From a virus: DNA of 45,695 nt. Within the stretch, counting starts at the first letter, position 1; each line of letters opens with the position of its first letter. Under the pieces are notes generated by a model, which had not been told where the DNA came from, searched no databases, and saw only the letters and a list, made by a program, of their open reading frames with translations. The position numbers were made by a program, and so were the translations under genes. Shown here in pieces: positions 126 through 37,016 of this stretch. The DNA lies in the IMG/VR virus record IMGVR_UViG_3300045988_144013; one strand, written 5' to 3'.

Positions 126-1187
126 CTAAAAAAAATTTGAGAGACGCTTCTGTGCATTTTCTCTCATTTCATCAGTGTAGTGTACATATGCCTTTAAAAC
201 TGTTTCAACTGTATCTCCCAACAATGCTGCGACCGTTTTAATATCAAAGCCACTACTAAGTAATGTTGTAGCATAAGTATGCCTGAAGTCATGAATACTT
301 GTGTCATCTTTTGTGTACAGAGAAACTCTTTTTATAGAGTGATATGTCACATTCCAAAATACCATATCGCTGATGTGACGAGGATATTTATTCTTGTATT
401 CAATTAAAACCGTTTGTAATCGCATAGGTATAGGTACAGTTCGATAAGAGTTATTGCTTTTTAATTCTTGTAGGGTCATAATATTTCTATTTGTAGCAAC
501 CATTTGTCGCTCTACTTTTAATGTGCCTGCATTAAAATCAATATCAGACCATTTCAAACCTGTTATCTCGCCAACCCTAAGCCCCGCGAAAGCGGCGATA
601 CAACACGCTGTATATAAAGTATAGTTCTTGGATTTTAAACGTGCTAGAACAGCTTCTAAACGTTCTTTGGAAAGGGCGTTTATTTTTCTTTGGCCTTTTA
701 TTTTTAACGGATGTATCCCTATCGTAGGATCTTTAGTTATAAGTTCGTATGGAGATACCGCTCTTTTAAAAATAGTTTTTAGTTTTACGAGATACAAGTT
801 GGCGGTGTTTGCTTTCACTGGTAAAGAGTTAAATATTGATTGTATGTCGCTATGCGTTATGTCTACCAGACGCATATCTTTTAGTTCTGAAAAGGCTTTG
901 ATAGCGTGCTGGTATCCGAGTAGAGTGTTGTATGCTATGCTCCTTCTTATATCATTAAGATACATTGCGGAAAATTCACCAAAGGTTATTCTTGCAGTGC
1001 TATTGTCCATATATATTGGCGCATTTGCTTTAACTTCTTCTAGTAACTTATCGCCTGCTATTTTTGCTTCTCTTTTGGTTTTAAATCCTTGTTTTGATTT
1101 TTGCTTCCAACAACCACGATTATCTTTATAGGATAATATTACTTGAAATCCTTTATCTTTTTCTCTAAAAGTGAAATTATACTCCAT
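126..1187 (-). CDS. int: Tyrosine recombinase / phage integrase
   Basis: 353 aa. N-terminal SAM-like domain. C-terminal catalytic signature LRVGE...HDFRHTYATTLL...VHYTD (R, HxxR, Y). Located at the genome end next to the repeat. Confidence 0.92.
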   Translation of the reverse strand: MEYNFTFREKDKGFQVILSYKDNRGCWKQKSKQGFKTKREAKIAGDKLLEEVKANAPIYMDNSTARITFGEFSAMYLNDIRRSIAYNTLLGYQHAIKAFSELKDMRLVDITHSDIQSIFNSLPVKANTANLYLVKLKTIFKRAVSPYELITKDPTIGIHPLKIKGQRKINALSKERLEAVLARLKSKNYTLYTACCIAAFAGLRVGEITGLKWSDIDFNAGTLKVERQMVATNRNIMTLQELKSNNSYRTVPIPMRLQTVLIEYKNKYPRHISDMVFWNVTYHSIKRVSLYTKDDTSIHDFRHTYATTLLSSGFDIKTVAALLGDTVETVLKAYVHYTDEMRENAQKRLSNFF

Positions 1188-5345: not shown

Positions 5346-5921
5346 ATGAAGCTAACAGTTAAAGGTTTACAGACGTTAAAAGGGATGGGATACATAAATT
5401 TAGTAGTACCTGTCCCTTTATCAGAGGAAGAAGAAATCAATAAAATCGATCCTGAAAAGCAGTATGTTGTAGAGGTCAAGCAATGGCGCAAAGGGCGTTC
5501 TAACGACGCTAATAAATACGCTTGGGTATTATGCCAAAGGATAGCAGAAAAGCTGTCAGAAGAGAGCTTTCACAGCAAGGAAGATGTTTACAGGAAGGCA
5601 ATCCGGGAATGTGGTTACGGCAGAATATGGCCAGTGCCAACTGACGCTGTAAACAGAACTATTGAAATTTGGCAAAGCAATGGTGTTGGCTGGATAGCTG
5701 AATTGCTTGGTGAATGTCAGAACATTAAAGGCTATAGCAATGTAAGGGTATATTACGGTAGCAGTGCTTATGACACGAAAGAGATGAGCCGTTTTATAGA
5801 TTGTTTGGTATCTATGGCAAAAGATATTGGTGTAGAAACAAGGCCGCAGGAAGAATTAGATGAGCTGATCAAGGAGTGGGGCGTTAAAGATGATTCCAAA
5901 AATAAAGAGGATAAGACTTAA
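5346..5921 (+). CDS. NinB/Orf-like recombination mediator
   Basis: KGRSNDANKYAWVLCQRIAEKL aligns by eye with lambda Orf RNRSLDQNRKLWACLGDV. The C-terminal SSAYDTKEMSRFIDCLVSMAKDIGV aligns with STSRMRVGEFAELLELIQAFG. Confidence 0.55.
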   Translation: MKLTVKGLQTLKGMGYINLVVPVPLSEEEEINKIDPEKQYVVEVKQWRKGRSNDANKYAWVLCQRIAEKLSEESFHSKEDVYRKAIRECGYGRIWPVPTDAVNRTIEIWQSNGVGWIAELLGECQNIKGYSNVRVYYGSSAYDTKEMSRFIDCLVSMAKDIGVETRPQEELDELIKEWGVKDDSKNKEDKT

Positions 5922-11210: not shown

Positions 11211-11397
11211 AGGAATGGATATGCCTGCAAACTGCGGTGAATGCCCATTGACATATCCAGTTGGCTTTTATAGGAATCTACCATTTTCTGTTGATAAGAG
11301 CAAAGGCTGCTGTATTCTTGTCTGTGAAATTGAAGATCCAAACATTAGGCTGATAGATTGTCCATTAATTGAGATAAAGGATGGTGAAGAAAAATGA
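11197..11397 (+). CDS. Small Cys-rich protein (MPANCGECPL type)
   Basis: Start reset to MIAIKG, which overlaps the upstream stop. CGEC...CC...C...DCPL. Confidence 0.5.
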   Translation: MIAIKGMDMPANCGECPLTYPVGFYRNLPFSVDKSKGCCILVCEIEDPNIRLIDCPLIEIKDGEEK

Positions 11398-11482
11398 ATC
11401 AATTGTTTATAAGTGTTACGGTGCTTTGGATGATAGCTTGCATTGTAATGAGCACAATATCTAAATAGGAGCGTGAATAACA

Positions 11483-24758: not shown

Positions 24759-25394
24759 ATGTGTTTATCTGTAGGTATGATGATGGGATTGACTGCTTTG
24801 CAGGGAGTATCGCAAATAGCTGCGACGAACCAACAGGCTAAAGCGCAGCAGGCTTATTACGATGCGCAGGCACAGGCTGCAGAACAAAACGCTGATATAC
24901 AGGCAAAGAAGGGGGAGCAGATAGCGGAGCAGTACGCTTATGAGCAGCAAAAACTCAATGATCGTCGTCGCCTTGTAGCAGGTCAGCAGGCCGCCGCATT
25001 TGGCGCAGCAGGCATCAGTGGCGATATGGGGACAGCTCTTGACCTTAGTGATTCCAGCTTTAGGGCTTATAGAAAAGACAGTAACCAGCTTTTGAGTAAT
25101 CAGCGCAACGACCAATGGAGTAACTATCTTGGCGTAGTGAATTACAAGAACCAGGCTAACGCTGCAAGAGCTTCTGCTTATAACGTGAAACAACAGGCCA
25201 AGCAGCAGAATATAGGCACTATCTTGGGTACTGCTGCTGGTATTTTTGGCGCATATAAAAATTACGGCGGCAGCGGGAAAACAGGCGGTTCATCCAACGG
25301 AGGCTTTGTTTATCAGTCGCCTTATCAAAATAATTACACAAGTCCATATTCGGGCATCGCGCCACTTGGTAAATCAAAATATCCTTACTTCTAA
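24759..25394 (+). CDS. Internal virion / ejection protein (Q/A-rich)
   Basis: N-terminal TM segment and a QAxxQA-rich coiled region. Lies in the core-protein block. Confidence 0.45.
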   Translation: MCLSVGMMMGLTALQGVSQIAATNQQAKAQQAYYDAQAQAAEQNADIQAKKGEQIAEQYAYEQQKLNDRRRLVAGQQAAAFGAAGISGDMGTALDLSDSSFRAYRKDSNQLLSNQRNDQWSNYLGVVNYKNQANAARASAYNVKQQAKQQNIGTILGTAAGIFGAYKNYGGSGKTGGSSNGGFVYQSPYQNNYTSPYSGIAPLGKSKYPYF

Positions 25395-25396
25395 AC

Positions 25397-25425
25397 TTGC
25401 ATTGGTACGAAATGTATTATATAAT
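25397..25425 (+). promoter_or_regulatory. Sigma70-type promoter TTGCAT-N17-TATAAT
   Basis: Perfect -10 and 4/6 match at -35, with a 17-nt spacer, 3 bp after the preceding stop. Confidence 0.55.
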
Positions 25426-25544
25426 AAACGAAAAGAGATAGTCAGTGGTCGCACGCTGGCTCTCCCTCATAATCATAAAACGTGAAAGGAAGCCGCGCGC
25501 CACTGGTGTTAGCGGCTTATTTCATGGCTATTTACAGCCTAAAA

Positions 25545-25611
25545 TGACAATAGCTATTAATGTACTAAAAGCAATCATCAAAGACAACGCTTCATAAGTT
25601 GACAATAGCTA
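25545..25611 (+). repeat. Direct repeat TGACAATAGCTAT x2, each containing the palindrome ATAGCTAT
   Basis: Copies at 25545-25557 and 25599-25611. Confidence 0.8.
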
Positions 25612-25656
25612 TCACCCCCCGTAAGGGAAGCCAACACACTGACTATCTCGGACAAC

Positions 25657-25685
25657 ATTATAACATACCTTTAAGCGCTTAACAA
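25657..25685 (-). promoter_or_regulatory. Minus-strand promoter TTGTTA-N17-TATAAT with TG extension
   Basis: Read on the reverse complement. It would start transcription at the right arm of the 13-bp inverted repeat, convergent with the plus-strand promoter. Confidence 0.45.
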
Positions 25686-25704
25686 TTTGTTAAAGCGCTT
25701 TTTC
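25673..25704 (+). terminator. Terminator, family member 2
   Basis: AAGCGCTTAACAA / TTGTTAAAGCGCTT (one bulge) followed by TTTT. The 5' arm AGCGCTTAAC is shared with members 1 and 3. 27 nt before the next ATG. Confidence 0.65.
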
Positions 25705-25730
25705 TATACCTAAAAAGGAGGTCTAAACCT

Positions 25731-27839: not shown

Positions 27840-30800
27840 ATGGACGCAGCAAGAAAACAGGAATTAGATAACATCTTTAATAACGCATTAAAAGCCAGCA
27901 CTAATTATTCTATTCAAAATGCCTATTATGGCACTGACAGCGGAGTGGACCCTTTGTCTACACTTGGTTTTATTGATAAGCAAACCGGTTATGATGTGGA
28001 ATCTAAAATTACTACAGCACTTCTTAATGGTGCAAAATCCGGGATAAAAGGGTTATTGGCAAATGCAGGCGCAATGGTAGAAGAAAATATTGCAATACAT
28101 AAAAGGCAAGATCCCAATTATATACCGTATGGCGGCTATGCTCCGAAAATTGCAGAACAATTCAACAGTTTGGCAAACAGTGAGATTTTACAAAGGACTG
28201 ATGTGCGTAGCAGTAGCAAGCTGGGGCAGTTTGGGCTTGATTTTTTAGAGGGTGCAGGTCAATTTGTTCCGCAAATTGCAGTAACAGGATTAACTGGCGG
28301 TATAGGTGGCGGCATTTTTATGGGTATGTCTATTGCCGGCAACCAATATTCGGACTTGAGAGCGCAGGGCGTTGATGTAGAAACCGCTGCTAAAGCAAGT
28401 CGTTATAACGCTATTATACAGGCACCGCTGGAGCAGCTGGCGCTTGGTAAGGTTTTGGCGAGTCTGCCAGCAGGAAGTCCGTTAAAGAAGAGACTTGTTC
28501 GGTTATTAGAAAGTGCAATAACAGAAGGTGGGACAGAATTCATTCAAGAATTCCCTGAGCAGCTGACGAATATCTATGCCCAAAATCCAAATGCTGATGC
28601 TAAGCAAATTGCTACAGAATGGGACAAAAACTGGCAAGAAAATATTAAAAACGCAGGTTATAGTGGGTTGATCGGTGCCTTATTAGGCGTTGGAGCTAGT
28701 GGTGCTAAAATAGCGATTGACAGTATTGGTGAAAATGTTGATGCTGAAATACACAAAGAAAAACTAACTCAATTAGAAAATAATATCGAAAATGTTAAAA
28801 AAAGTGGAGTTAATCCGGAATATGCAGCGGGTGTTATTAATACGAATCGACCTTCTGATTTTATATCAATAGATGGGCAAAAGCTTCAGCAATATATGCA
28901 GGAGCAGGGAGCGGAAAAGATCACTCAAGCTTTGAATATTACAGAAGATGAAGTAAATGCTGCCGCCACTGATGGGTTGGACGTAGAAGTGCCTATAGGA
29001 GATTTTACGGCTGCCGCTTGTAAGTATGGCGATTTTTATAAAACTATGCAGGATCATATTTCTTTTGGAGATGGTGACTATAGTGTTAACGATAGAAAAT
29101 TAAAAAAGGATCTACGTAAAGCATATCAAATTTCAGAAAATGCCAGAGAAGAGCTGGATATAGAAGTTGATAAAATTGTGGAAAACTCTACAAATGCAAA
29201 AATGAACCAGGAAGAACGAGGAGCGTTGCGCGAATTTTTGGTCAGTCAGGCTATGATTGTTAATCCTGAAAATCCAGCGCAGTATTTCAGAGATCATCCA
29301 GTAGAAATAAAGCGTGTTGTCAGTACTCCTAAGGGCCGATATATGCAAACTAAAAGCGCTAACGAAAAATTGATTGAGGATGAAAGAAACTTTGCTGGCA
29401 TCGTAGATGAATATACTGCAGGGAAAATAAACGATACTAAAACTTATAATGTTATGACGACACCGCTTGCATTGGGTCTTGCAGGCGGTAAAATTTTGCC
29501 TGTAACTATCGACGGAAGCAAGATCAAACATATTTTTGACGGCCATTCCGATGGCATGACGCCGGAGCTGCTAAAACAAGTTCCACGTGCTATGGCTGAC
29601 CCGATGATGGTTTTAGATTCGTATGCTGGGCGTAAGGTTGTTGTATTAGACTTAAAGGATGCACAAGGGTCTACTATTATTCTTCCTTTAGAACTTGATG
29701 TTGAACGCAATCGTTATCAGGTGAATGCTGTCAGCAGTGCTTATGGGAAAGGTGGAGAAAATGGCACAGATTATGATTGGTTTATAGAGCACAATCTAAA
29801 AAAAGGTAGAGTGTCATATATAAATAAAGAAAAGACTGCCAAGTGGTTACAGTCTCCAGGCAGCGATTCCGCCAGCAGAGGTAACGACCTTGACAGTCTT
29901 CTTAATAATAGTATACCAGATGAAAATGCACTTCGCAAGAGACGAGAAGAAATGCAGGGATACTACCAGGCCGAAGGGAAAACTAAAGGTGCTATCACCT
30001 GGGACGAAGAAGGCAAAGCAATTATCAGCCTGTTTGAAGGTTCGGATGTGACAACAGTCTTCCATGAAACAGGACATTATTTTGTAGAGAATCTTGCGAA
30101 CGATGTAAATAGCGGGAAAGCAACCGAACAGCGACAAAAAGACTGGGAAACATTGCTGGACTATGCCGGAATAACTAATGAACAATGGCTTAATATGAGT
30201 ATAGATGAACGCCGGCCTGCTCATGAAAAATGGGCAGAGGGGTTTGAAACATATGTAATGGAAGGTAAGGCTCCGTCTCTTGCTCTGCGCCATGTTTTTG
30301 CAAAAATGGCGAAATGGATGAAGCGTGTTTATGAAAGTATTAGGCGTAATGAAAATGCTGCTCCGCTGACTGATGAAGTTCGGCAGGTCTTTGATCGTAT
30401 GCTTGCCAGTGAAGAGGAAATAAATACAATGTCCAGAGTAGATGGTTATTTTAATAAGCTTCCTTCTGTTATAACAGATAATCTTTCTGAGAGCTCTAAA
30501 ATCAGGCTTGAAAATTATATTGCTAAAGCAAGGGACGAAGCTGTAGATATTTTGACCAGGGAAAGTTTAAGGAATTTTACAAAAGAACGTCGTGTAGCGA
30601 TTGAGGACTTCAAAGATAAACTTCGTCCTGAAATCAGAACAGAAGTAGAGAAACAGCCTTTGTATGCTGCTGGACGAATGCTTGTTGATGATTTGCAGAA
30701 AAAACAAACAGCGAAAGGCGTTGCAGATTATTATCTTGGCTTAATTGCCAGAACTTTGGATATTGAAAGTAAACCTTTGAGCGAAGTAGAAGAGCTTGAT

Positions 30801-33800
30801 GTTATGAAGTTTGATATGATTGCTGAAGCTCAGGGCTTTAGCGGTGATGAGCTGGCAAAAAGGCTTATTGCCGAGCCTACGCTTGAACAGGCGATAGAGA
30901 GAGCCCTTGATAATGCGGTACAAGTAAAATTTCCTGATATTTATAAAGAACGCCAATTAGCGGAAGATGCGGCACGAGAAGCCATTTATAATGATGATAG
31001 CGGTCTGTTGATTGGTGTAGAACAACAGCTAATTGAAGATATGGCAGCGAATATCAATAATAAACAGCGTAGTACAGAACAGGCTCTTGCGCTTGCCCGA
31101 GCACGTAAGCAACAGGCTAAATTAGCAGCTAAAGCAGAAATCAGTAAAATGAGTATGAGTAATGCTTTGAAAACGGGCAGGTTTGTTATGGCAGAACGTC
31201 GTGCTGCAGCACAGGCGGCGAAAGCTATAAAAGCTAAGAGTTTTGAAGAAGCGGCAGATTATAAAAGACAGCAGGCTTTTAACCATGCTTTGGTATTGGA
31301 AAGTTTAAAAATGAAGCAGGAAAAAAGCAGAGCTGAAAAATTTTTAAAACGCCAGTTTAAGGCAAAAAAAGAAACGTGGGAAGATGAAAAGCACTTTACA
31401 CAAGCAGCTGCCATTATGGAAAGGATGGGATTAAAACGCAAGGATTATGATCCTGCACTCAGAAAACAATCTTTAATAGAGTATGCAGAAGAAATGCAGG
31501 AACAATATGATAATGTTGCTATTGCCGACTGGCTTATGGATGAAGGGACGTCTTTAGACAATCCTGCCGCAATGACTTTTGAACAACATCAGGATGTTAT
31601 CAATGCTTTGAAAAATATTAAAGCAATCGTTAAACAGGAAAAATATGTAACCTGGTACGGTAAGGAATTGAATTATAAGGAATTCAAGGACGAGGCTATT
31701 AGGAATCTTTTGAAACTAAAAACAAAATGGCAATCTGGTATCAATTCCAAAGAAAAGGCTAAGCCAAGTCAGAGATTTTTTAGAAACCTTACAAATACTG
31801 ATAATTTCTTTGAGCGGATGGATGGCTGGAAATATGGATTTTTCAGTAAACATTTTGGCGAAAGCGGACAAATTGCAGCTAATAAAAAAGCTGCATATAC
31901 AATGGAGTTTGAAGAACGTATTGCTGACGCTACTAAAAAATGGCTGCCGGATAAAAAGGCTGCGGAAGCAGCAGATAAAGAAATTTATTACGAACCATTT
32001 AAGGCCTCATTAACAAAACATAATATTATAAAGATGCTATTGTATTTAGGCTCGGAAAGCAGTTCGTATAAATTGTGTTCAGTTGGGCCTAACAGTACTT
32101 ATGCAACATTTTTCCGAGGCTCTGAGTTGTGGGTTGAAGGTGATCTTGAACAGACGAGAAGCAATTTGCTTGAGGCTTTAGGCAACGTTTTAACAGAAGC
32201 TGATATTCGTTACGCGGAGGAAATTTCCGCTGCTTGTAGCGCTCACTGGAATGAACTTTCGGATATGGTAAAAAGAACGACTGGTTTCTCGCCTGAGAGA
32301 GTTGATGCTATGCCAGCAGAACTTACTTTGCGTAATGGAGCTAAAGTTGTTTTCCGTGGTGGGTACATTCCGTTAGTAAGATATACTGACGGTGGCAGTC
32401 ATCCTGCTACGTCGGATGCCGTTCCGGCAACAAGCGATAAGCGTGCTGTAAACAGTATTAGAACACTGCATACAAATACCGGTGGAACCAAAGCACGTGA
32501 TAGAAGTGTATATCCGTTGGATTTAAGAAAAGGCGCTGAGTACTCTGCAGTTATGGATAATATACATGATCTATGCTATAGAGAACTAGCTACAAGCTAT
32601 CGTAAAATGTTGAATGATCCTGAAATGTATTCTTTGCTGAAAGAAAAATTAGGTATTGCGAATTTTGAAGCGTTTACAGAATACTTAAAGAAAACGGCAC
32701 AGCCTTATGACGGTGGTTACGCTTCAATCAGTGAAAGAGATGCAGGGACTTGTTTGAGCTGGATACGCCAAAAGGCAGTCAATGTAGCAATAATGCTTAA
32801 CTTCAAAACTGCTGTCCAAAACTTGGGAAATCCGTTGTTATATGGTAATGTTGTTGAAGGCTTTGGTTATAAGGACGTAATGGCCGCTTATGGAAATTTG
32901 TTTTTGAATATGCAAAAAGGGCAAGGATGGAAAGCTTCCAAAGAACTTGTTTATTCTAAATCATCTTATATGAAAGAGCGTTCTGTATTGCCGGATATTT
33001 CATTGCGGGATATGAAAGACGAGAGTAGAAAACTGAATCCAGTTGAGCAGGTTACAGTTGAATTTGGTACAAAAGCATTGGTGTTTACCGATAATTTATC
33101 AGCTATTCCTGTTTGGATACAGGCGTATCAAAAGAAAATCAATGTCGGAGTCAGCGAACAGGAAGCCGTGCTATTTGCGGATACTGTTATTAGGCGTACA
33201 CTTGGCAGCAGCCGTATTACAGATGTTGCACCTATTCAGCGTGGCAGCGCACTCATGAAATTATTTACAACATTCCAGGGCTTTTTCAATACGCAGTTCA
33301 ATCAATGGCAAAGAGAAGCTGGAATTTTTGGCCGTGAGTGGAGTGCCGGAAGGAAAGTTGAAGCATCTAAGCGAATAGTTGCTTTTGCAGCGGCTAAGTA
33401 TTTTATGTTTTGCCTGCTGAATTTGGCTTTTGCATTAGAACCGCCTTTTGAAGAAGACGATGATGAATGGACAAAATATGGTAAAGAGCTTTTGCAGTAT
33501 CCTATGAGTTTGCTAGGACCTGTTGGGCAGGTTGCCAATACTCTTGTTAGCAATATGGTCGGAATGCGAACCTATGGCTATAGGATGACTGCAGTACAAG
33601 GTTCTATCGAACAAGCGGAGCGTACAGTAAAGAAAATAAGCAGTGTACAAAAAGGCAATGCTGAACCAGAAGAACTGATTGAGCCTTTAGCTAATCTCGG
33701 TGGTCTTATCGCTGGTGTGCCGGCGCAGTTCAATAAATTGTTTTTTAACGCTTATGATATTGTTGTAAATGATATGGAGCCTCAGTGGGGCGATATCTAC

Positions 33801-33827
33801 AGACGCAGACCAAAAAAAGAACGGTAA
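27840..33827 (+). CDS. Giant polyvalent internal virion / DNA-ejection protein (1995 aa)
   Basis: N-terminal glycine-zipper TM region. Central KHIFDGHSDGMTPELL module (phage MuF/PBECR-like). HETGH zinc-peptidase motif at 30063-30077. Long coiled coils. C-terminal TM segments. Confidence 0.7.
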   Translation: MDAARKQELDNIFNNALKASTNYSIQNAYYGTDSGVDPLSTLGFIDKQTGYDVESKITTALLNGAKSGIKGLLANAGAMVEENIAIHKRQDPNYIPYGGYAPKIAEQFNSLANSEILQRTDVRSSSKLGQFGLDFLEGAGQFVPQIAVTGLTGGIGGGIFMGMSIAGNQYSDLRAQGVDVETAAKASRYNAIIQAPLEQLALGKVLASLPAGSPLKKRLVRLLESAITEGGTEFIQEFPEQLTNIYAQNPNADAKQIATEWDKNWQENIKNAGYSGLIGALLGVGASGAKIAIDSIGENVDAEIHKEKLTQLENNIENVKKSGVNPEYAAGVINTNRPSDFISIDGQKLQQYMQEQGAEKITQALNITEDEVNAAATDGLDVEVPIGDFTAAACKYGDFYKTMQDHISFGDGDYSVNDRKLKKDLRKAYQISENAREELDIEVDKIVENSTNAKMNQEERGALREFLVSQAMIVNPENPAQYFRDHPVEIKRVVSTPKGRYMQTKSANEKLIEDERNFAGIVDEYTAGKINDTKTYNVMTTPLALGLAGGKILPVTIDGSKIKHIFDGHSDGMTPELLKQVPRAMADPMMVLDSYAGRKVVVLDLKDAQGSTIILPLELDVERNRYQVNAVSSAYGKGGENGTDYDWFIEHNLKKGRVSYINKEKTAKWLQSPGSDSASRGNDLDSLLNNSIPDENALRKRREEMQGYYQAEGKTKGAITWDEEGKAIISLFEGSDVTTVFHETGHYFVENLANDVNSGKATEQRQKDWETLLDYAGITNEQWLNMSIDERRPAHEKWAEGFETYVMEGKAPSLALRHVFAKMAKWMKRVYESIRRNENAAPLTDEVRQVFDRMLASEEEINTMSRVDGYFNKLPSVITDNLSESSKIRLENYIAKARDEAVDILTRESLRNFTKERRVAIEDFKDKLRPEIRTEVEKQPLYAAGRMLVDDLQKKQTAKGVADYYLGLIARTLDIESKPLSEVEELDVMKFDMIAEAQGFSGDELAKRLIAEPTLEQAIERALDNAVQVKFPDIYKERQLAEDAAREAIYNDDSGLLIGVEQQLIEDMAANINNKQRSTEQALALARARKQQAKLAAKAEISKMSMSNALKTGRFVMAERRAAAQAAKAIKAKSFEEAADYKRQQAFNHALVLESLKMKQEKSRAEKFLKRQFKAKKETWEDEKHFTQAAAIMERMGLKRKDYDPALRKQSLIEYAEEMQEQYDNVAIADWLMDEGTSLDNPAAMTFEQHQDVINALKNIKAIVKQEKYVTWYGKELNYKEFKDEAIRNLLKLKTKWQSGINSKEKAKPSQRFFRNLTNTDNFFERMDGWKYGFFSKHFGESGQIAANKKAAYTMEFEERIADATKKWLPDKKAAEAADKEIYYEPFKASLTKHNIIKMLLYLGSESSSYKLCSVGPNSTYATFFRGSELWVEGDLEQTRSNLLEALGNVLTEADIRYAEEISAACSAHWNELSDMVKRTTGFSPERVDAMPAELTLRNGAKVVFRGGYIPLVRYTDGGSHPATSDAVPATSDKRAVNSIRTLHTNTGGTKARDRSVYPLDLRKGAEYSAVMDNIHDLCYRELATSYRKMLNDPEMYSLLKEKLGIANFEAFTEYLKKTAQPYDGGYASISERDAGTCLSWIRQKAVNVAIMLNFKTAVQNLGNPLLYGNVVEGFGYKDVMAAYGNLFLNMQKGQGWKASKELVYSKSSYMKERSVLPDISLRDMKDESRKLNPVEQVTVEFGTKALVFTDNLSAIPVWIQAYQKKINVGVSEQEAVLFADTVIRRTLGSSRITDVAPIQRGSALMKLFTTFQGFFNTQFNQWQREAGIFGREWSAGRKVEASKRIVAFAAAKYFMFCLLNLAFALEPPFEEDDDEWTKYGKELLQYPMSLLGPVGQVANTLVSNMVGMRTYGYRMTAVQGSIEQAERTVKKISSVQKGNAEPEELIEPLANLGGLIAGVPAQFNKLFFNAYDIVVNDMEPQWGDIYRRRPKKER

Positions 33828-33920: not shown

Positions 33921-34301
33921 TTAGAAGAAAAATTTATGGGAATGACATTGTTCATATATTTTTCTTATTTCCCAATTAGAAATATTATAGCCATGTAGTC
34001 GTTTATTGTGGAAAACCAACATAAATAAAAACCAAAAAAATGGCAAAATGAATCCTAGATAGGCATTATAAGAATAAATACCAGTTATGTATGGTATAAA
34101 ATATATTGTCGCGATAATTAGTCCGAGAGCAACAAATACATTTTCAATTAATTTTATAATTAGCAAATATAAAGTAAAAGCAATTAAAGTAATAATTCCG
34201 CATTGAAGTTTAAGTATTATTGAACCTTCACGACCCATTCCGATTGCAAATATAGAAAGCCATACACATAATCTTCCCATATCGTCATTAAATTTATCCA
34301 T
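33921..34301 (-). CDS. Four-TM membrane protein; candidate superinfection-exclusion protein (SieA position)
   Basis: 126 aa, very hydrophobic, low-GC codons. Own TG-extended -10 (TGATATAAT) and RBS AGGAG. Confidence 0.6.
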   Translation of the reverse strand: MDKFNDDMGRLCVWLSIFAIGMGREGSIILKLQCGIITLIAFTLYLLIIKLIENVFVALGLIIATIYFIPYITGIYSYNAYLGFILPFFWFLFMLVFHNKRLHGYNISNWEIRKIYEQCHSHKFFF

Positions 34302-34370
34302 ACCAATACTCCTAAAATAAGCATATTATTGACTGTTTTTCATAATTATATCACATTTATAAATGAAAAT

Positions 34371-34392
34371 AAAACAGCCCGTAGGCTGTTTT
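34371..34392 (-). terminator. Terminator after the XRE gene
   Basis: AAAACAGCC-CGTA-GGCTGTTTT, symmetric hairpin. Confidence 0.6.
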
Positions 34393-34396
34393 AAAG

Positions 34397-35101
34397 TTAA
34401 GATTTATTAAGGTATTCTTCTATGAATTTATTCAAGTCATTATCTTGATTGTCTACTATTATATATAAATCATCAATAATAGAATGTTTTTTTGAATCTG
34501 TAATGAATTTAAACTGACCTGAAATAAAAGCAAAAAGTCCGATTACGACTTCACTGTCTCTGAAAAATTTGAAAAGCAAATAACCATTCTGTGAAATAGG
34601 ATCAATTGCGGTGAAATATGATTCCTGTTCTAAAAAATCATAATCATTAAATTGAGGGAAAAAGCTCAAAATAAAATCATTTATGATTGGATGTGTTGAA
34701 TTAAAATGTTTGTTTTTATCCAAAGAAACCGGATTTCCATTGTCATCCAAAACCATTATTTCTTCTTTTAAGTCTTCTGGTATCTTTTTTATGAATGGAA
34801 CACTTTCAACTTTAGGGAAGATATCCCAGTGAACCAAAGAATTCTGTGTATCGTATATTAGTTTTTCTACTAATTTATAGACTTTAGAGTCAGACTTTGA
34901 TTGAGTATCTAAAAGCAGATAATCTAAAGTTACATTAAATAATTCTACAAGTTTTTTTAATAATTCTGGATCGCTAGGAATACTTTTTCCCGTTTCGTAG
35001 TAACTAACAATTCTCGAGGATACTCCTAACTTTGTGGCTAAATCTTTTTGGGTCATACCCTTGGCTTCACGGAGTTTCTTTAGATTTTCACTGAAAGACA
35101 T
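34397..35101 (-). CDS. XRE-family HTH regulator with an unknown 165-aa C-terminal domain (Mnt-position repressor)
   Basis: LREAKGMTQKDLATKLGVSSRIVSYYETGK. Start reset to MSFSEN. Divergent from the RHH/antirepressor operon. Low GC. Confidence 0.75.
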   Translation of the reverse strand: MSFSENLKKLREAKGMTQKDLATKLGVSSRIVSYYETGKSIPSDPELLKKLVELFNVTLDYLLLDTQSKSDSKVYKLVEKLIYDTQNSLVHWDIFPKVESVPFIKKIPEDLKEEIMVLDDNGNPVSLDKNKHFNSTHPIINDFILSFFPQFNDYDFLEQESYFTAIDPISQNGYLLFKFFRDSEVVIGLFAFISGQFKFITDSKKHSIIDDLYIIVDNQDNDLNKFIEEYLNKS

Positions 35102-35180
35102 ATTAATCACCACCTAAAGCAATTATAACAATAAGAACCATAAGACACAATATTTTTCTCGAAAAACATCAAGACGTATA

Positions 35181-35209
35181 TTGACATAACTAACGTATTA
35201 CGTTAAAAT
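35181..35209 (+). promoter_or_regulatory. Promoter TTGACA-N17-TAAAAT with an embedded 15-bp perfect palindrome TAACGTATTACGTTA
   Basis: Consensus -35. The palindrome 35191-35205 spans the spacer and -10. 33 nt before the RHH gene. Confidence 0.65.
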
Positions 35210-35241
35210 TAAAAGTAACAAACGAGAAAGGAGTATTAAAG

Positions 35242-35412
35242 ATGAGGCCAACAATTGATTTTAAAGGTGATCTTGGAGCAGTACTTAGATACCACTGTAC
35301 AAAAGTGGGCATTAGTATTGCTGGCTATGTCAAGGGGTTAGTGTATGATGATTTGTTAAAGAAGTATCCTAACTTACTTGATGAAACAAAAAAAGAAACT
35401 ACCATCAAATAG
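35242..35412 (+). CDS. Arc/Mnt-like ribbon-helix-helix protein (56 aa, tentative)
   Basis: N-terminal beta-strand-like TIDFKGDL followed by two helices. RBS AAAGGAG. Not in the ORF track. Confidence 0.45.
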   Translation: MRPTIDFKGDLGAVLRYHCTKVGISIAGYVKGLVYDDLLKKYPNLLDETKKETTIK

Positions 35413-35471
35413 TTCTTGGCGGAACAATGGTAGTTTCATAATGAAAGAATGTTCAAGATAAACATCATTCT
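35388..35471 (-). ncRNA. Candidate antisense small RNA, about 84 nt (sar-like position)
   Basis: Minus-strand promoter TTGAAA-N17-TAAACT (complement of 35478-35506). 11-bp perfect hairpin 35395-35405 / 35427-35437, followed on the minus strand by T7. Confidence 0.4.
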
Positions 35472-35531
35472 TTTAACAGTTTATCATATATTGAACATTC
35501 TTTCAAATTAAAATTGAAAGGATGTATTTTT

Positions 35532-36263
35532 ATGAAAAACGAACTGAAGATTTTTGAAAACGAAGCTTTTGGTAAAGTTAGAATAATTGAAAAAAATAAT
35601 GAGCCGTGGTTTGTAGGCAAAGATGTTGCTGATATTTTGGGGTATAAAAATGGCAGCCGTGATATTAACGTCCATGTTGATGAAGAAGATAGGCTAAAGT
35701 ACCAAATCCGTACCGCAGGTCAAGCGAGAGAGCAGACACTTATTAACGAAAGCGGATTATACTCATTGATTCTATATAGTAAGCTACCTGCCGCAAAGAA
35801 ATTCAAACGCTGGGTAACAAGCGAAATACTTCCTGCGATTCGCAAAACTGGGTCGTATTCTGTAAATCAGGATATAAAAGCTAGAGAAGTAGAAGCTCGC
35901 TTAAATAACAGCCGGGCAAGAGTTGCATCGACATTCCTTAAAGTTGCTCAAATGACTGATCTGCTAGAATATAAGCATATATGTCAGCAGAAAGCAGCAG
36001 AGGTTTTAAGTGGTTTACCGTTACTACCAATGGAAGAAGCTAAAGAAATTACTTATTCAGCAACAGATATAGGGAAAATGCTTGGAGTATCGGCAAATAA
36101 AATAGGTAAGATAGCCAATCAGCATAATCTTAAAACGCCGCAGTATGGAAAGTTATTTTACAGCAAATCGGAACATAGTTGCAAAGAAGTAGAAACATTC
36201 CGTTACTACGAATGCGCCATTCTAAAATTCAGAGAAATTCTGAAAGGTGGTGTGGTGGCATGA
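35532..36263 (+). CDS. BRO-N domain antirepressor
   Basis: LKIFENEAFGKVRII...EPWFVGKDVADILGY...INESGLYSLILYSKLPAAKKFKRWVTSEILPAIRKTGSY. Start reset to MKNELK. Confidence 0.85.
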   Translation: MKNELKIFENEAFGKVRIIEKNNEPWFVGKDVADILGYKNGSRDINVHVDEEDRLKYQIRTAGQAREQTLINESGLYSLILYSKLPAAKKFKRWVTSEILPAIRKTGSYSVNQDIKAREVEARLNNSRARVASTFLKVAQMTDLLEYKHICQQKAAEVLSGLPLLPMEEAKEITYSATDIGKMLGVSANKIGKIANQHNLKTPQYGKLFYSKSEHSCKEVETFRYYECAILKFREILKGGVVA

Positions 36264-36472
36264 ACTTGACAGATGCTATTAAATTAGCTGGATATCAGGA
36301 AGTGCCATTCTACAATCAAGAAGTTATAAAAGGGTTAAATGATATAGTGGAGTGTGAAAAACGGAAAAGCAGCTATAACGATTTACCTTTTGCGGCGTGT
36401 TTGAGTGGTTACTTGTATGGAGTTACGCAAGGCGTTCGTAAAGAACGGCAAAGAAGAAAAAATGCCCGGTAA
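36260..36472 (+). CDS. Hypothetical protein (70 aa)
   Basis: ATGA overlap with the antirepressor stop. Start reset to MNLTDAIK. Confidence 0.5.
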   Translation: MNLTDAIKLAGYQEVPFYNQEVIKGLNDIVECEKRKSSYNDLPFAACLSGYLYGVTQGVRKERQRRKNAR

Positions 36473-36499
36473 AGGGATTGAAATAGTTTTTGAATAATG

Positions 36500-36566
36500 A
36501 AAAAAAGAAACACCCGCTTTCCGTGGAAAGATGCGCGAGTGTTTCTTGTGACCAGCCGAAGCTGAT
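36500..36566 (-). ncRNA. Candidate antisense small RNA, about 67 nt
   Basis: Minus-strand promoter TTGATA-N17-TATACT (complement of 36573-36601). Hairpin AGAAACAC / GTGTTTCT (36506-36546), followed on the minus strand by T6-7. Confidence 0.35.
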
Positions 36567-36613
36567 AACAATAGTATAGCAGTTTTCGGCTGGTATATCA
36601 AGGAGGATATACC

Positions 36614-36823
36614 ATGAACGGAAACAGGTCGTCGTGTCCTGACGAAGAAAAAAGGGCATTGGAGAAATTTGTCGAAGTTGTAAGAAGCACATCTCAAGAA
36701 GAATTTGCAAGAAAATATATAAATGAAGATAGTGATAAAATGACAGAGACAAAAAGCGAGATCTCCACCGCTGATAGAAAAGAAGTAAAAGAACAAATCA
36801 AAGGCGGTGTAAATAATGAATAA
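36614..36823 (+). CDS. Hypothetical protein
   Basis: 69-aa ORF. The RBS AAGGAG sits in the loop of an 8-bp hairpin. Confidence 0.45.
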   Translation: MNGNRSSCPDEEKRALEKFVEVVRSTSQEEFARKYINEDSDKMTETKSEISTADRKEVKEQIKGGVNNE

Positions 36824-37016
36824 AGTGCGGAAATCATTTAGGGAGCTGTTGAACAAATTGTCTCCGGCGCAGCTTGAAGAAGTAGCAGCCATAGCATATG
36901 AGATAAAGAAAGAACGTGAATCGTCGTCGAAGGTAGTTCGGTTTATGGATAAGTCCAGCCAGCGTTGTTATGATCAGGGGTATAAGCTTGGTCTGATGTT
37001 AGGAAATAAATTTTAA
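36816..37016 (+). CDS. Hypothetical protein
   Basis: 66-aa ORF overlapping the upstream stop. Confidence 0.45.
   Translation: MNKVRKSFRELLNKLSPAQLEEVAAIAYEIKKERESSSKVVRFMDKSSQRCYDQGYKLGLMLGNKF

What the first reader, a model, noticed from the sequence alone, without database searches (positions are those of the whole stretch)
25397..25704. Non-coding island inside the structural operon with face-to-face promoters, a 13-bp closing inverted repeat and internal palindromic repeats
A 336-bp gap interrupts otherwise tightly packed core-protein genes. It holds TTGCAT-N17-TATAAT on the plus strand (25397-25425) and TTGTTA-N17-TATAAT with a TG extension on the minus strand (25657-25685). Each would start transcription at one arm of a perfect 13-bp inverted repeat, GAGATAGTCAGTG (25435-25447 / 25637-25649). 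Inside are a GC hairpin (25490-25518) and two copies of TGACAATAGCTAT. The plus transcript ends at a strong terminator that overlaps the minus-strand promoter. The minus strand also encodes a 16-aa hydrophobic peptide, MIAFSTLIAIVILGCK (complement of 25528-25578), fully covered by the plus-strand RNA. That layout recalls Ibs/Sib-type type I toxin-antitoxin pairs, although no Shine-Dalgarno sequence precedes the peptide. Alternatives are a structured regulatory RNA of about 270 nt or a miniature inverted-repeat insertion.
Basis: partly seen in the sequence, partly recalled or inferred. Interest (0 to 1): 0.7.

Follow-up and report, generated by a model that had tools for sequence, protein, structure and literature searches.

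The report
Prophage type I toxin-antitoxin cassette
The non-coding-looking gap in this prophage's virion-gene operon is a small self-contained toxin-antitoxin module (a 25-residue membrane toxin of the TxpA/BsrG 'holin-like toxin' family plus an antisense RNA), a well-known kind of element here seen in a gut Negativicute phage and occurring as swappable variants.

Summary
They are best explained as a type I toxin-antitoxin cassette of the TxpA/BsrG kind, not Ibs/Sib.

- **Toxin gene.** The minus strand encodes a 25-aa peptide, (M)STYEALSLMIAFSTLIAIVILGCK (complement 25528-25605). It has a TTG start and a GGGGGGUGA Shine-Dalgarno 6 nt upstream.
- **Family.** The peptide scores 35.5 bits against Pfam Hol_Tox (cut-off 23.3). 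The exact sequence is already in RefSeq as 'putative holin-like toxin' (WP_220399594.1). Two sister variants are annotated in Phascolarctobacterium faecium.
- **Distribution.** About 100 related phage contigs carry the cassette, always between the T7 gp14-like and gp15-like genes. More distant relatives lack it.
- **Variants.** Five cassette types share near-identical promoter and terminator flanks but have diverged cores.
- **Inverted repeat.** The 13-bp repeat covaries across types. G·U pairs place it in the minus-strand RNA, so it is a 5'-3' closing helix like helix P1 of bsrG mRNA. The SD and start codon are sequestered.
- **Antitoxin.** The central hairpin is stronger on the plus strand in four of five types. 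It is the likely terminator of a ~95-nt antisense RNA.

No transcripts or toxicity were tested. This is a new member of a known kind, of modest interest.

The parts
25397..25425 (+). Predicted sigma-70-type promoter of the antisense (antitoxin) RNA: TTGCAT-N17-TATAAT. The predicted start is about 25432.
   Evidence: Read in the sequence. Invariant apart from one R position in all cassette types, and duplicated together with the cassette in arrays. The -35 matches consensus at only 3/6 positions and the site is not listed by the scan. Function is inferred.
25432..25525 (+). Predicted antitoxin sRNA of about 95 nt: a 5' stem-loop, a linker, then a terminator hairpin plus UUAUUU. It is fully complementary to the 3' part of the toxin mRNA.
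   Evidence: Folds of five cassette types give the same shape. The 5' 54-56 nt, or this whole unit, persists as orphan remnants in arrays where the toxin ORF is deleted. The ends are predicted, not measured.
25435..25447 (-). 3' strand of helix P1 of the toxin mRNA (left arm of the 13-bp inverted repeat). On the minus strand it is followed by UUUUCGUUUAUU.
   Evidence: covariation; 100% of cells paired; G·U only on the minus strand.
25455..25459 (-). 3' strand of helix P2 (CCAGC in the RNA).
   Evidence: 95/95 cells paired on the minus strand against 76/95 on the plus strand, with one compensatory pair.
25458..25494 (-). 3'-domain hairpin P3 of the toxin mRNA (GGCUUCC...GGGAGAGCC).
   Evidence: 90/95 cells paired on the minus strand against 67/95 on the plus strand. 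The register is approximate.
25490..25518 (+). Central GC hairpin flanked by an A-rich tract upstream and a U-rich tract downstream. It is the likely intrinsic terminator of the antitoxin RNA. It also forms a weaker stem-loop just 3' of the stop codon in the toxin mRNA, which is a likely loop-loop contact site.
   Evidence: clearly more stable on the plus strand in four of five cassette types and equal in type D (A: -16.0 vs -11.0 kcal/mol)..
25528..25605 (-). Toxin ORF: 25 codons plus stop, TTG start, product (M)STYEALSLMIAFSTLIAIVILGCK.
   Evidence: Translation. Pfam PF16935 Hol_Tox 35.5 bits against a cut-off of 23.3. Exact sequence is RefSeq WP_220399594.1 'putative holin-like toxin'. It is the only ORF conserved in all five cassette types and is always 78 nt.
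25545..25557 (-). ORF-internal segment (codons for L-I-A-I-V) that pairs with the SD/start-codon region. This is the first copy of the 'TGACAATAGCTAT' repeat.
   Evidence: MFE folds. An equivalent pairing is predicted in all five cassette types. Repeat confirmed.
25600..25612 (-). Start-codon region (second copy of the repeat; TTG = complement 25603-25605), sequestered by pairing with 25545-25557.
25612..25620 (-). Shine-Dalgarno GGGGGGUGA, 6 nt upstream of the TTG. Its G-run is paired with the upstream anti-SD CUUCCC (complement 25625-25630).
   Evidence: Sequence and folds. SD GGUGGUGA or GGGAGGUGA is at the same place in types B, D and C.
25631..25635 (-). 5' strand of helix P2 (GUUGG).
25637..25649 (-). 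5' strand of helix P1, at the predicted 5' end of the toxin mRNA (right arm of the inverted repeat).
25427..25649 (-). Predicted full-length toxin mRNA, about 220 nt.
   Evidence: Inferred from the promoter position and from the requirement that both P1 strands lie in one minus-strand RNA. The ends are not measured.
25657..25685 (-). Predicted toxin promoter: TTGTTA-N17-TGnTATAAT.
   Evidence: 10/12 matches, TG extension. Nearly invariant in all cassettes.
25673..25705 (+). Strong plus-strand intrinsic terminator (AAGCGCUUAACAA/UUGUUAAAGCGCUU + UUUUUCU) overlapping the toxin -35. It probably insulates gp15/gp16 from the constitutive antitoxin promoter. Late transcripts must read through it.
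   Evidence: Fold. Invariant in the nine aligned sequences, with single-base variants in a few other contigs. Its function is inferred.

Best explanation
The island is a self-contained type I toxin-antitoxin cassette of the TxpA/BsrG kind. It is carried as a moron between the gp14-like and gp15-like internal-virion genes of a temperate T7-like prophage of Phascolarctobacterium faecium.

**Toxin side (minus strand).** A sigma-70-type promoter on the minus strand (25685-25657) makes a toxin mRNA of about 220 nt. Its 5' end pairs with its 3' end (helix P1, the 13-bp inverted repeat, plus P2). Its Shine-Dalgarno and TTG start codon are buried in stems, so the full-length mRNA is poorly translatable. 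It encodes a 25-aa single-helix membrane peptide of the Hol_Tox family.

**Antitoxin side (plus strand).** A convergent plus-strand promoter (25397-25425) makes an antisense RNA of about 95 nt that ends at the central hairpin. This RNA is perfectly complementary to the 3' part of the toxin mRNA, including the 3' strands of P1, P2 and P3.

**Inferred mechanism.** By analogy with bsrG/SR4 and txpA/RatA, pairing starts at the complementary hairpin loops and opens P1. It creates a long duplex that is cut (RNase III), and it may tighten SD sequestration.

**Inferred role.** In the lysogen the pair is expressed constitutively. Loss of the prophage, or shut-off of host transcription, would let the more stable toxin mRNA outlast the antitoxin. 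That would stabilise the prophage or abort superinfection.

**Shown here:** the ORF and its family; conservation of the architecture; covariation and strand assignment of the helices; the fixed genomic position; the allelic cassette types.

**Inferred:** transcript ends, RNA-RNA mechanism, toxicity and biological role.
For: **Coding evidence**
- The peptide hits Pfam Hol_Tox above the gathering score in all five cassette types, at 32-38.5 bits against 23.3.
- TxpA, BsrG and BsrE, typed in from memory, hit the same model at 31-48 bits.
- The exact peptides are RefSeq 'putative holin-like toxin' entries, two of them from P. faecium.
- The ORF is the only one conserved across types. It is always 78 nt while the UTRs vary in length, and third-position changes are enriched.
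- There is a sub-threshold Rfam BsrG match on the minus strand.

**RNA structure**
- P1, P2 and P3 are 98.7% paired, against 39-48% when the partners are slid. Five pairs show compensatory changes.
- 55 G·U cells make these helices work only on the minus strand. Minus-strand pairing is 209/209, 95/95 and 90/95; plus-strand pairing is 201/209, 76/95 and 67/95.
- The SD and start codon are sequestered in every type.
- This matches the probed bsrG mRNA, where 5' nt 1-35 pair with 3' nt 232-262 in P1, the SD lies in a stem, and SR4 binds the 3' part and opens P1 (PMC3834814).

**Antitoxin**
- The convergent promoter is conserved.
- The central hairpin is clearly more stable on the plus strand in four of five types and equal in type D, and it carries U-rich tails.
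- Arrays retain the antitoxin 5' region, or a whole antitoxin unit, where the toxin ORF has been lost. The reverse is never seen.
- B. subtilis family members likewise have antitoxins overlapping the toxin 3' end, and they sit on prophages (PMC6562991; PMC2887945).

**Context**
- The element is a temperate phage with an integrase and a repressor.
- The island is absent from more distant relatives, where the gap is 4-12 bp.
- Type I TA stabilise a C. difficile prophage (PMC7699646).
Against: - No transcript, toxicity or neutralisation data exist for this locus.
- The plus-strand -35 is weak by consensus (3/6) and was not called by the scan.
- The central hairpin also has a U-rich tail on the minus strand. 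Some toxin transcripts may therefore stop there and lack the 3' strands of P1-P3.
- The toxin mRNA has no separate terminator hairpin after P1, unlike bsrG, so its 3' end is uncertain.
- Only three clearly separate cassette lineages (A, B/D, C) underlie the covariation, so the statistics are thin. The consensus structure was also derived on the minus-strand alignment, which favours that strand for P3.
- At 25 aa, with a single C-terminal Lys, the peptide is shorter than the tested toxins (30-59 aa).
- The host is a diderm Firmicute, in which no family member has been tested.
- The strong plus-strand terminator in front of gp15 has no established explanation.
Confidence: 0.78

Rival explanations
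1. It is an Ibs/Sib-like arrangement. A long plus-strand RNA (about 268 nt, from about 25432 to the terminator at about 25700) covers the entire toxin mRNA and its promoter. It silences the toxin by full-length duplex formation and by transcriptional interference.
For: - The far-right hairpin plus U-run is a strong plus-strand terminator and is almost invariant.
- If the central terminator leaks, such an RNA must exist.
- The promoters are face to face, 230 bp apart.
Against: - The central hairpin has terminator features and is clearly stronger on the plus strand in four of five types, equal in type D.
- Orphan remnants end exactly at or before that hairpin.
- The peptide is not an Ibs homologue, and there is no Sib hit in Rfam.
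- Tested relatives use 3'-end overlap.
Confidence: 0.12
2. The peptide is used by the phage itself as a holin-like or lysis-timing factor, or as a membrane effector during lytic growth, rather than as an addiction or abortive-infection toxin. The antisense RNA merely keeps it off in the lysogen.
For: - The family name and database annotation read 'putative holin-like toxin'.
- The gene sits inside the late operon.
Against: - The gene is on the opposite strand to the late operon. It has its own sigma-70-type promoter and a sequestered SD.
- Late rightward transcription would produce antisense RNA to it and collide with its transcription.
- More distant relatives lack the cassette altogether.
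- Characterised family members are TA toxins.
Confidence: 0.06
3. The inverted repeat and conserved flanks act at the DNA level, either as a miniature inverted-repeat element or as a site-specific recombination cassette. The ORF is then incidental.
For: - The variable cores are bounded by near-identical flanks that include the outer part of the inverted repeat.
- Arrays and stubs show repeated recombination at GAAAAGAGATAG.
Against: - There is a single copy in the window. All 104 contigs with readable downstream sequence have it at the same gp14/gp15 junction.
- Only one hit was found in 185,579 species genomes.
- The inner part of the repeat covaries and tolerates G·U on one strand only, which fits an RNA helix.
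- The ORF has a significant Pfam match and keeps its length.
Confidence: 0.03

Closest known systems
bsrG/SR4 of Bacillus subtilis prophage SPbeta (type I TA; toxin in Pfam Hol_Tox)
   Same: - The toxin belongs to the same Pfam family.
- It is carried on a prophage.
- The toxin and antitoxin genes are convergent, with the antitoxin complementary to the 3' part of the toxin mRNA.
- The toxin mRNA is closed by a long-range 5'-3' helix P1, with the SD in a stem and the start codon at the base of the next stem-loop.
- The antitoxin terminator loop is complementary to a toxin stem-loop just after the stop codon.
   Different: - The toxin is 25 aa against 38 aa.
- The mRNA is about 220 nt against 294 nt.
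- The predicted antitoxin is about 95 nt against 180 nt.
- There is no separate terminator hairpin after P1; P1 is followed directly by a U-run.
- The host is a diderm Negativicute.
- The cassette is embedded antisense inside a T7-like virion operon.
- Nothing has been tested experimentally here.
txpA/RatA (skin element), bsrE/SR5 and EF3263 of Enterococcus faecalis (TxpA family, Fozo et al. 2010)
   Same: - They share the N-terminal M-S/T-x-Y-E/Q-x-L motif family.
- The antitoxin sRNA overlaps the toxin 3' UTR; for EF3263 it is about 110 nt.
- They are located on mobile elements.
   Different: - There is no nucleotide similarity.
- RatA is 222 nt.
- The present peptides form their own 25-aa subgroup, annotated only as 'putative holin-like toxin'.
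Type I TA of Clostridioides difficile prophages phiCD630-1/-2 (Peltier et al. 2020)
   Same: - Small membrane toxins with antisense RNAs sit inside gut-Firmicute prophages.
- They were shown to contribute to prophage maintenance. This is the role inferred here.
   Different: - The toxin families are unrelated (34-47 aa).
- The positions within the prophages differ.
hok/sok and aapA/IsoA (fold-back inhibition of toxin mRNA)
   Same: It works alike in one respect: a 5'-3' long-distance pairing keeps the full-length toxin mRNA inert (own knowledge of these systems).
   Different: - The toxin family is different.
- In those systems the antitoxin targets the 5' region.
- No 3'-processing step is evidenced here.
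ibs/sib of E. coli
   Same: It has a very small hydrophobic toxin with a cis-antisense RNA.
   Different: - There is no sequence or Rfam relationship.
- Sib covers the whole ibs ORF, whereas here the overlap is most likely 3'-terminal only.

Membership tests
TxpA/BsrG-type type I toxin (Pfam PF16935 Hol_Tox) | The peptide matches the family profile above the curated cut-off. | tested here: met
   35.5 bits (window) and 32.2-38.5 bits (other cassette types) against a cut-off of 23.3. TxpA, BsrG and BsrE, recalled from memory, score 31-48 bits on the same model. RefSeq names the exact sequence 'putative holin-like toxin'.
TxpA/BsrG-type type I toxin (Pfam PF16935 Hol_Tox) | A small peptide with a single hydrophobic helix and a polar or charged C-terminus. 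| tested here: met
   The sequence is 25 aa with a hydrophobic core LSLMIAFSTLIAIVILG and a C-terminal Lys. The charged tail is minimal compared with BsrG or TxpA.
bsrG/SR4-like type I TA locus | The toxin mRNA is closed by a 5'-3' helix, with the SD in a double-stranded region. | tested here: met
   Covariation and strand test and folds of five types, compared with the probed bsrG structure. This is a prediction only; no structure probing was done.
bsrG/SR4-like type I TA locus | A convergently transcribed antisense RNA overlaps the 3' part of the toxin mRNA. | tested here: inconclusive
   There is a conserved promoter-like site and a hairpin-plus-U-tail that is plus-strand-biased in four of five cassette types. 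No expression data are available, and the -35 is weak.
bsrG/SR4-like type I TA locus | The peptide is toxic when overproduced, the toxicity is neutralised by the antisense RNA, and decay depends on RNase III. | not testable with these tools
   This requires experiments in P. faecium or a surrogate host.
bsrG/SR4-like type I TA locus | A matching Rfam model exists for the toxin mRNA or the antitoxin. | tested here: not met
   No family reaches gathering score. BsrG (RF01412) gives only 18.4 bits against 55 on the minus strand, and no antitoxin family matches. RNA sequence is not conserved across this toxin family, so this does not exclude membership at the protein or architecture level.
ibs/sib | An Ibs-family peptide and a Sib RNA. 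| tested here: not met
   The only significant Pfam hit is Hol_Tox. There is no Sib match even at E<=10.
Miniature inverted-repeat transposable element | Many dispersed copies at unrelated sites, bounded by terminal inverted repeats and target-site duplications. | tested here: not met
   There is one copy in the window. All 104 contigs with readable downstream sequence have it at the gp14/gp15 junction. A scan of species genomes gave one hit.

The most novel reading that the evidence does not exclude
The gp14/gp15 junction of this family of P. faecium T7-like prophages may be a dedicated, hot-swappable slot for addiction modules.
- The invariant promoter and terminator flanks would serve as homology arms for exchanging toxin/antitoxin alleles (types A, B, D, C1, C2).
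- The retained orphan antitoxin pieces would give the phage RNA-level immunity to the toxin type it displaced. These pieces are a 54-56-nt 5' stub of type A or C in front of a type B cassette, or a whole type B antitoxin unit without its toxin. On this reading, related prophages compete through type I TA 'anti-addiction'.
- In addition, rightward late transcription through the cassette would act as a built-in antitoxin during lytic growth. The conserved terminator in front of gp15 would have to be overridden by a phage antitermination mechanism.
Probability: 0.2. Interest if true: 0.6.

Novelty: new member of a known kind. Interest (0 to 1): 0.35.

Why it matters
- **Annotation.** It resolves an apparently non-coding island into a recognisable module. 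It also corrects the gene model: TTG start, 25 aa, SD present.
- **Reach of the known architecture.** The bsrG-type layout (5'-3' closed toxin mRNA, 3'-overlapping antisense RNA) extends from Bacillus prophages to a prophage of an abundant human-gut Negativicute. No type I TA has been described for that group in the literature I could search.
- **Natural variants.** The series of cassette variants with identical flanks gives ready-made covariation support. It also offers a set of presumably orthogonal toxin/antitoxin pairs that could be tested or reused as RNA devices or counter-selection markers.
- **Limits.** None of this changes the general understanding of type I TA systems.

Tried and rejected
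**Searches that found nothing useful**
- Rfam at gathering thresholds gave nothing. At E<=10 it gave only sub-threshold hits.
- There are no tRNA or tmRNA genes.
- blastn of the island and megablast of the 12-kb structural region against cultured-phage records gave no match.
- The first genome-contig scan, using the gp15-like protein, confirmed nothing.
- The second scan, using the left flank, gave one contig labelled as a Muribaculaceae MAG. I regard it as mis-binned phage DNA, because the peptides are annotated in P. faecium and the genes have strong Gram-positive-type SDs.
- tblastn against phages gave only weak Brevibacillus-phage hits at E = 0.3.

**Alternatives rejected**
- A plus-strand 50-aa ORF in the island (25445-25597) is not conserved in other cassette types.
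- MITE, purely non-coding RNA and Ibs/Sib membership were rejected, as set out under the rival explanations and membership tests.

**Not run**
- I did not use the metagenome-contig scan or build a covariance model, because about 100 viral contigs already gave five cassette types.
Full report
**1. The observation**

The window is a temperate phage. It has an integrase (126-1187, minus strand), a repressor-like regulator, a DnaD-like replication protein, a terminase and a portal. It also has a major head protein and a T7-type nozzle. The gp13-, gp14-, gp15- and gp16-like internal virion proteins follow.

The gp14-like ORF ends at 25394 and the gp15-like ORF starts at 25731, leaving a 336-bp gap.
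- both promoter-like sites;
- the perfect 13-nt inverted repeat at 25435-25447 / 25637-25649;
- the GC hairpin at 25490-25518;
- the two copies of TGACAATAGCTAT;
- the plus-strand terminator that overlaps the minus-strand -35.

Both strands fold much better than shuffled controls, with z = -6.7 and -7.2.

**2. What the minus strand encodes**

That frame opens with TTG at 25605 and stops at 25528. The product is (M)STYEALSLMIAFSTLIAIVILGCK, 25 aa. GGGGGGTGA lies 6 nt upstream of the TTG.

- The peptide hits Pfam PF16935 (Hol_Tox, 'putative holin-like toxin') at 35.5 bits, against a cut-off of 23.3.
- Fozo et al. [quoted passage not shown]
- The exact 25-aa sequence is RefSeq WP_220399594.1, 'MULTISPECIES: putative holin-like toxin'. 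Two sister peptides are RefSeq entries from Phascolarctobacterium faecium.

The host is therefore almost certainly P. faecium or a close relative, a Negativicute. The protein-coding part has already been annotated by NCBI's pipeline.

**3. Relatives**

The gp15-like protein has many relatives. Contigs encoding relatives at 99-43% identity all have a 336-439-bp gap at the same junction. Contigs at 41-34% identity, including P. succinatutens, have only 4-12 bp there. The island is thus an insertion confined to one sub-clade.

Scans of IMG/VR with either flank gave about 100 contigs. In every contig with readable downstream sequence (104 of 106), the cassette is followed directly by a gp15-like start.

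The flanks are almost invariant, even between phages whose gp15 proteins are only about 45% identical. These flanks are:
- the plus-strand promoter through GAAAAGAGATAG;
- CTATCTCGGACAACATTATAAC with the minus-strand promoter;
- the right-hand terminator.

The core, by contrast, falls into five types: A (the window), B, D, C1 and C2. They are 55-73% identical between the three lineages A, B/D and C (B vs D 76-92%, C1 vs C2 92-100%).

**4. Coding constraint**

All five types keep a 78-nt ORF at the same place, preceded by an SD (GGUGGUGA or GGGAGGUGA). The peptides share M-[ST]-x-Y-[EQ]-A-L-S-L-M-x-x-F.

UTR lengths differ (37-48 nt and 86-97 nt), yet the ORF never has an indel. Third-codon positions change about twice as often per site as first and second positions. 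No other ORF on either strand is conserved.

**5. RNA structure and strand assignment**

I aligned 19 distinct cassettes in the minus-strand sense (A3).

- The consensus fold has a closing helix P1, which is the inverted repeat. It also has a second helix P2 just inside P1, and a 3'-domain helix P3.
- The inner part of P1 differs between types but stays complementary: CAGUG/CACUG in A, UUAAC/GUUAA in B, and UUGAU/AUCAA in C.
- Overall 98.7% of cells are paired, against 39-48% when partners are slid by 1-3 columns. Five pairs show changes on both sides.
- These helices contain 55 G·U cells. Read on the plus strand, those would be C·A mismatches. Pairing on the minus strand is 209/209, 95/95 and 90/95. 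On the plus strand it is 201/209, 76/95 and 67/95.

The helices therefore belong to the minus-strand RNA. That RNA must run from about 25649 to at least 25435, where P1 is followed by UUUUCGUUUAUU.

In MFE folds of each type, the SD and the start codon are buried. In the window, the G-run of the SD pairs with CUUCCC. The start region (second copy of the 'TGACAATAGCTAT' repeat) pairs with the first copy inside the ORF. This explains that repeat.

The same anatomy was determined by probing for bsrG mRNA. There, 5' nt 1-35 pair with 3' nt 232-262 in helix P1. The SD lies in a stem of SL1, and the start codon lies at the base of SL2. SR4 binds the 3' part and leaves the 5' strand of P1 single-stranded (PMC3834814).

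**6. The plus-strand RNA**

The central hairpin is flanked by an A-rich tract upstream and a U-rich tract downstream in every type. It is clearly more stable as plus-strand RNA in four of the five types and equal in type D:

| Type | Plus strand (kcal/mol) | Minus strand (kcal/mol) |
|---|---|---|
| A | -16.0 | -11.0 |
| B | -11.1 | -8.6 |
| D | -11.3 | -11.2 |
| C1 | -13.4 | -6.4 |
| C2 | -14.7 | -6.4 |

A plus-strand RNA from about 25432 to about 25525 (about 95 nt) would consist of a 5' stem-loop, a linker and this terminator. It would be complementary to the last 95 nt or so of the toxin mRNA. That matches the 3'-overlap layout of txpA/RatA, bsrG/SR4, bsrE/SR5 and EF3263.

Recombination products give independent support:
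- Most type B cassettes are preceded by a 54-56-nt stub. The stub is the 5' part of a type A or type C plus-strand RNA, cut just before its terminator.
- Another group of contigs carries four elements in a row. These are a type A stub, a complete type B antitoxin unit whose toxin ORF is deleted, a second promoter, and an intact C2 cassette.
- Antitoxin-side remnants without a toxin occur repeatedly. A toxin without its antitoxin side was never seen. This is what selection on a toxin-antitoxin pair predicts.

**7. Mechanism**

The steps below are inferred.
- In the lysogen both promoters fire.
- The full-length toxin mRNA is translationally inert, because of P1, P2 and the SD stems.
- The antisense RNA pairs with its 3' part, probably starting at the complementary hairpin loops. 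This triggers duplex cleavage and possibly tighter SD sequestration, as shown for bsrG/SR4.
- If the prophage is lost or host transcription stops, the toxin would be made.

Prophage maintenance by type I TA has been shown in C. difficile (PMC7699646). Abortive infection is an equally possible role.

The strong plus-strand terminator at 25673-25705 most simply insulates gp15/gp16 from the constitutive antitoxin promoter. It also means that late transcripts must read through two terminators. I cannot explain this.

**8. Comparison and verdict**

The locus works like bsrG/SR4, and its toxin is a member of the same Pfam family. RNA-level membership cannot be shown with Rfam models, and nothing has been tested experimentally.

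It is not Ibs/Sib, not a MITE, and not a purely non-coding RNA. The protein is already annotated. The following appear to be undescribed in the literature available to me:
- the antisense RNA and the mRNA architecture;
- the position inside a T7-like virion operon;
- the set of cassette alleles with orphan antitoxin remnants.

I rate it a new member of a known kind, of modest interest. The more interesting reading, allelic exchange and anti-addiction, remains untested.

Noticed in passing
L012-L014, L020, L021 and others (stub A + B); L019, L022, L026, L034, L063 (stub C + B); L025, L028, L039, L051 (stub A + toxin-less B unit + second promoter + C2): Cassette arrays occur. A 54-56-nt 5' piece of one antitoxin type is joined at the microhomology GAAA(A/G)GA to a complete cassette of another type. 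In some contigs a whole antitoxin unit is kept while its toxin ORF is deleted. Toxin-only remnants were never seen.
   Followed up: partly
window 25673-25700: The arms of the plus-strand terminator each contain the self-palindromic 8-mer AAGCGCTT. The two copies are 20 bp apart and flank the -35 of the toxin promoter. This could equally be a pair of operator sites for a dimeric regulator.
   Followed up: no
window 25673-25705 and 25490-25518: Two plus-strand terminators lie between gp14 and gp15, with no room for a promoter before gp15. The window encodes no T7-type RNA polymerase. Expression of gp15/gp16 therefore implies terminator read-through or antitermination of the late operon.
   Followed up: no
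window 27840-33827; L004-L017 downstream genes: The gp16-like internal virion protein is about 2,000-2,480 aa. It carries different internal modules in different relatives: MuF_C in the window, a faint ART-PolyVal hit in L010, and LPD3 in L016/L017. It resembles the 'polyvalent proteins' of phages.
   Followed up: partly
window 33921-36892: A block of regulatory genes interrupts the structural genes between gp16 and the tail-fibre genes. It holds a minus-strand repressor-like HTH protein (34397-35113), an Ant-type anti-repressor (35514-36263) and two further minus-strand ORFs.
   Followed up: partly
L080 (CAMUND010000039.1, 26,051 bp) and L081 (IMGVR_UViG_3300045988_091017, 26,051 bp): The only species-genome hit for the island is a contig binned as 'uncultured Muribaculaceae'. 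It has the same length as an IMG/VR viral contig. It is probably a mis-binned P. faecium phage contig.
   Followed up: no
H1-H5: Brevibacillus phages Jenst and SecTim467 (5670-5744, minus strand) and Osiris (11324-11398, minus strand): There are weak tblastn matches (52% identity over all 25 aa, E = 0.3) to the type B peptide, under 'hypothetical protein' features. These may be further phage-borne Hol_Tox genes.
   Followed up: no
window 25445-25416 (minus strand): A second promoter-like site (CTGACT-N18-TATAAT, 10/12) arises because the plus-strand -10 region ATTATATAAT is nearly palindromic. It would point into gp14 antisense. It is probably not meaningful.
   Followed up: no
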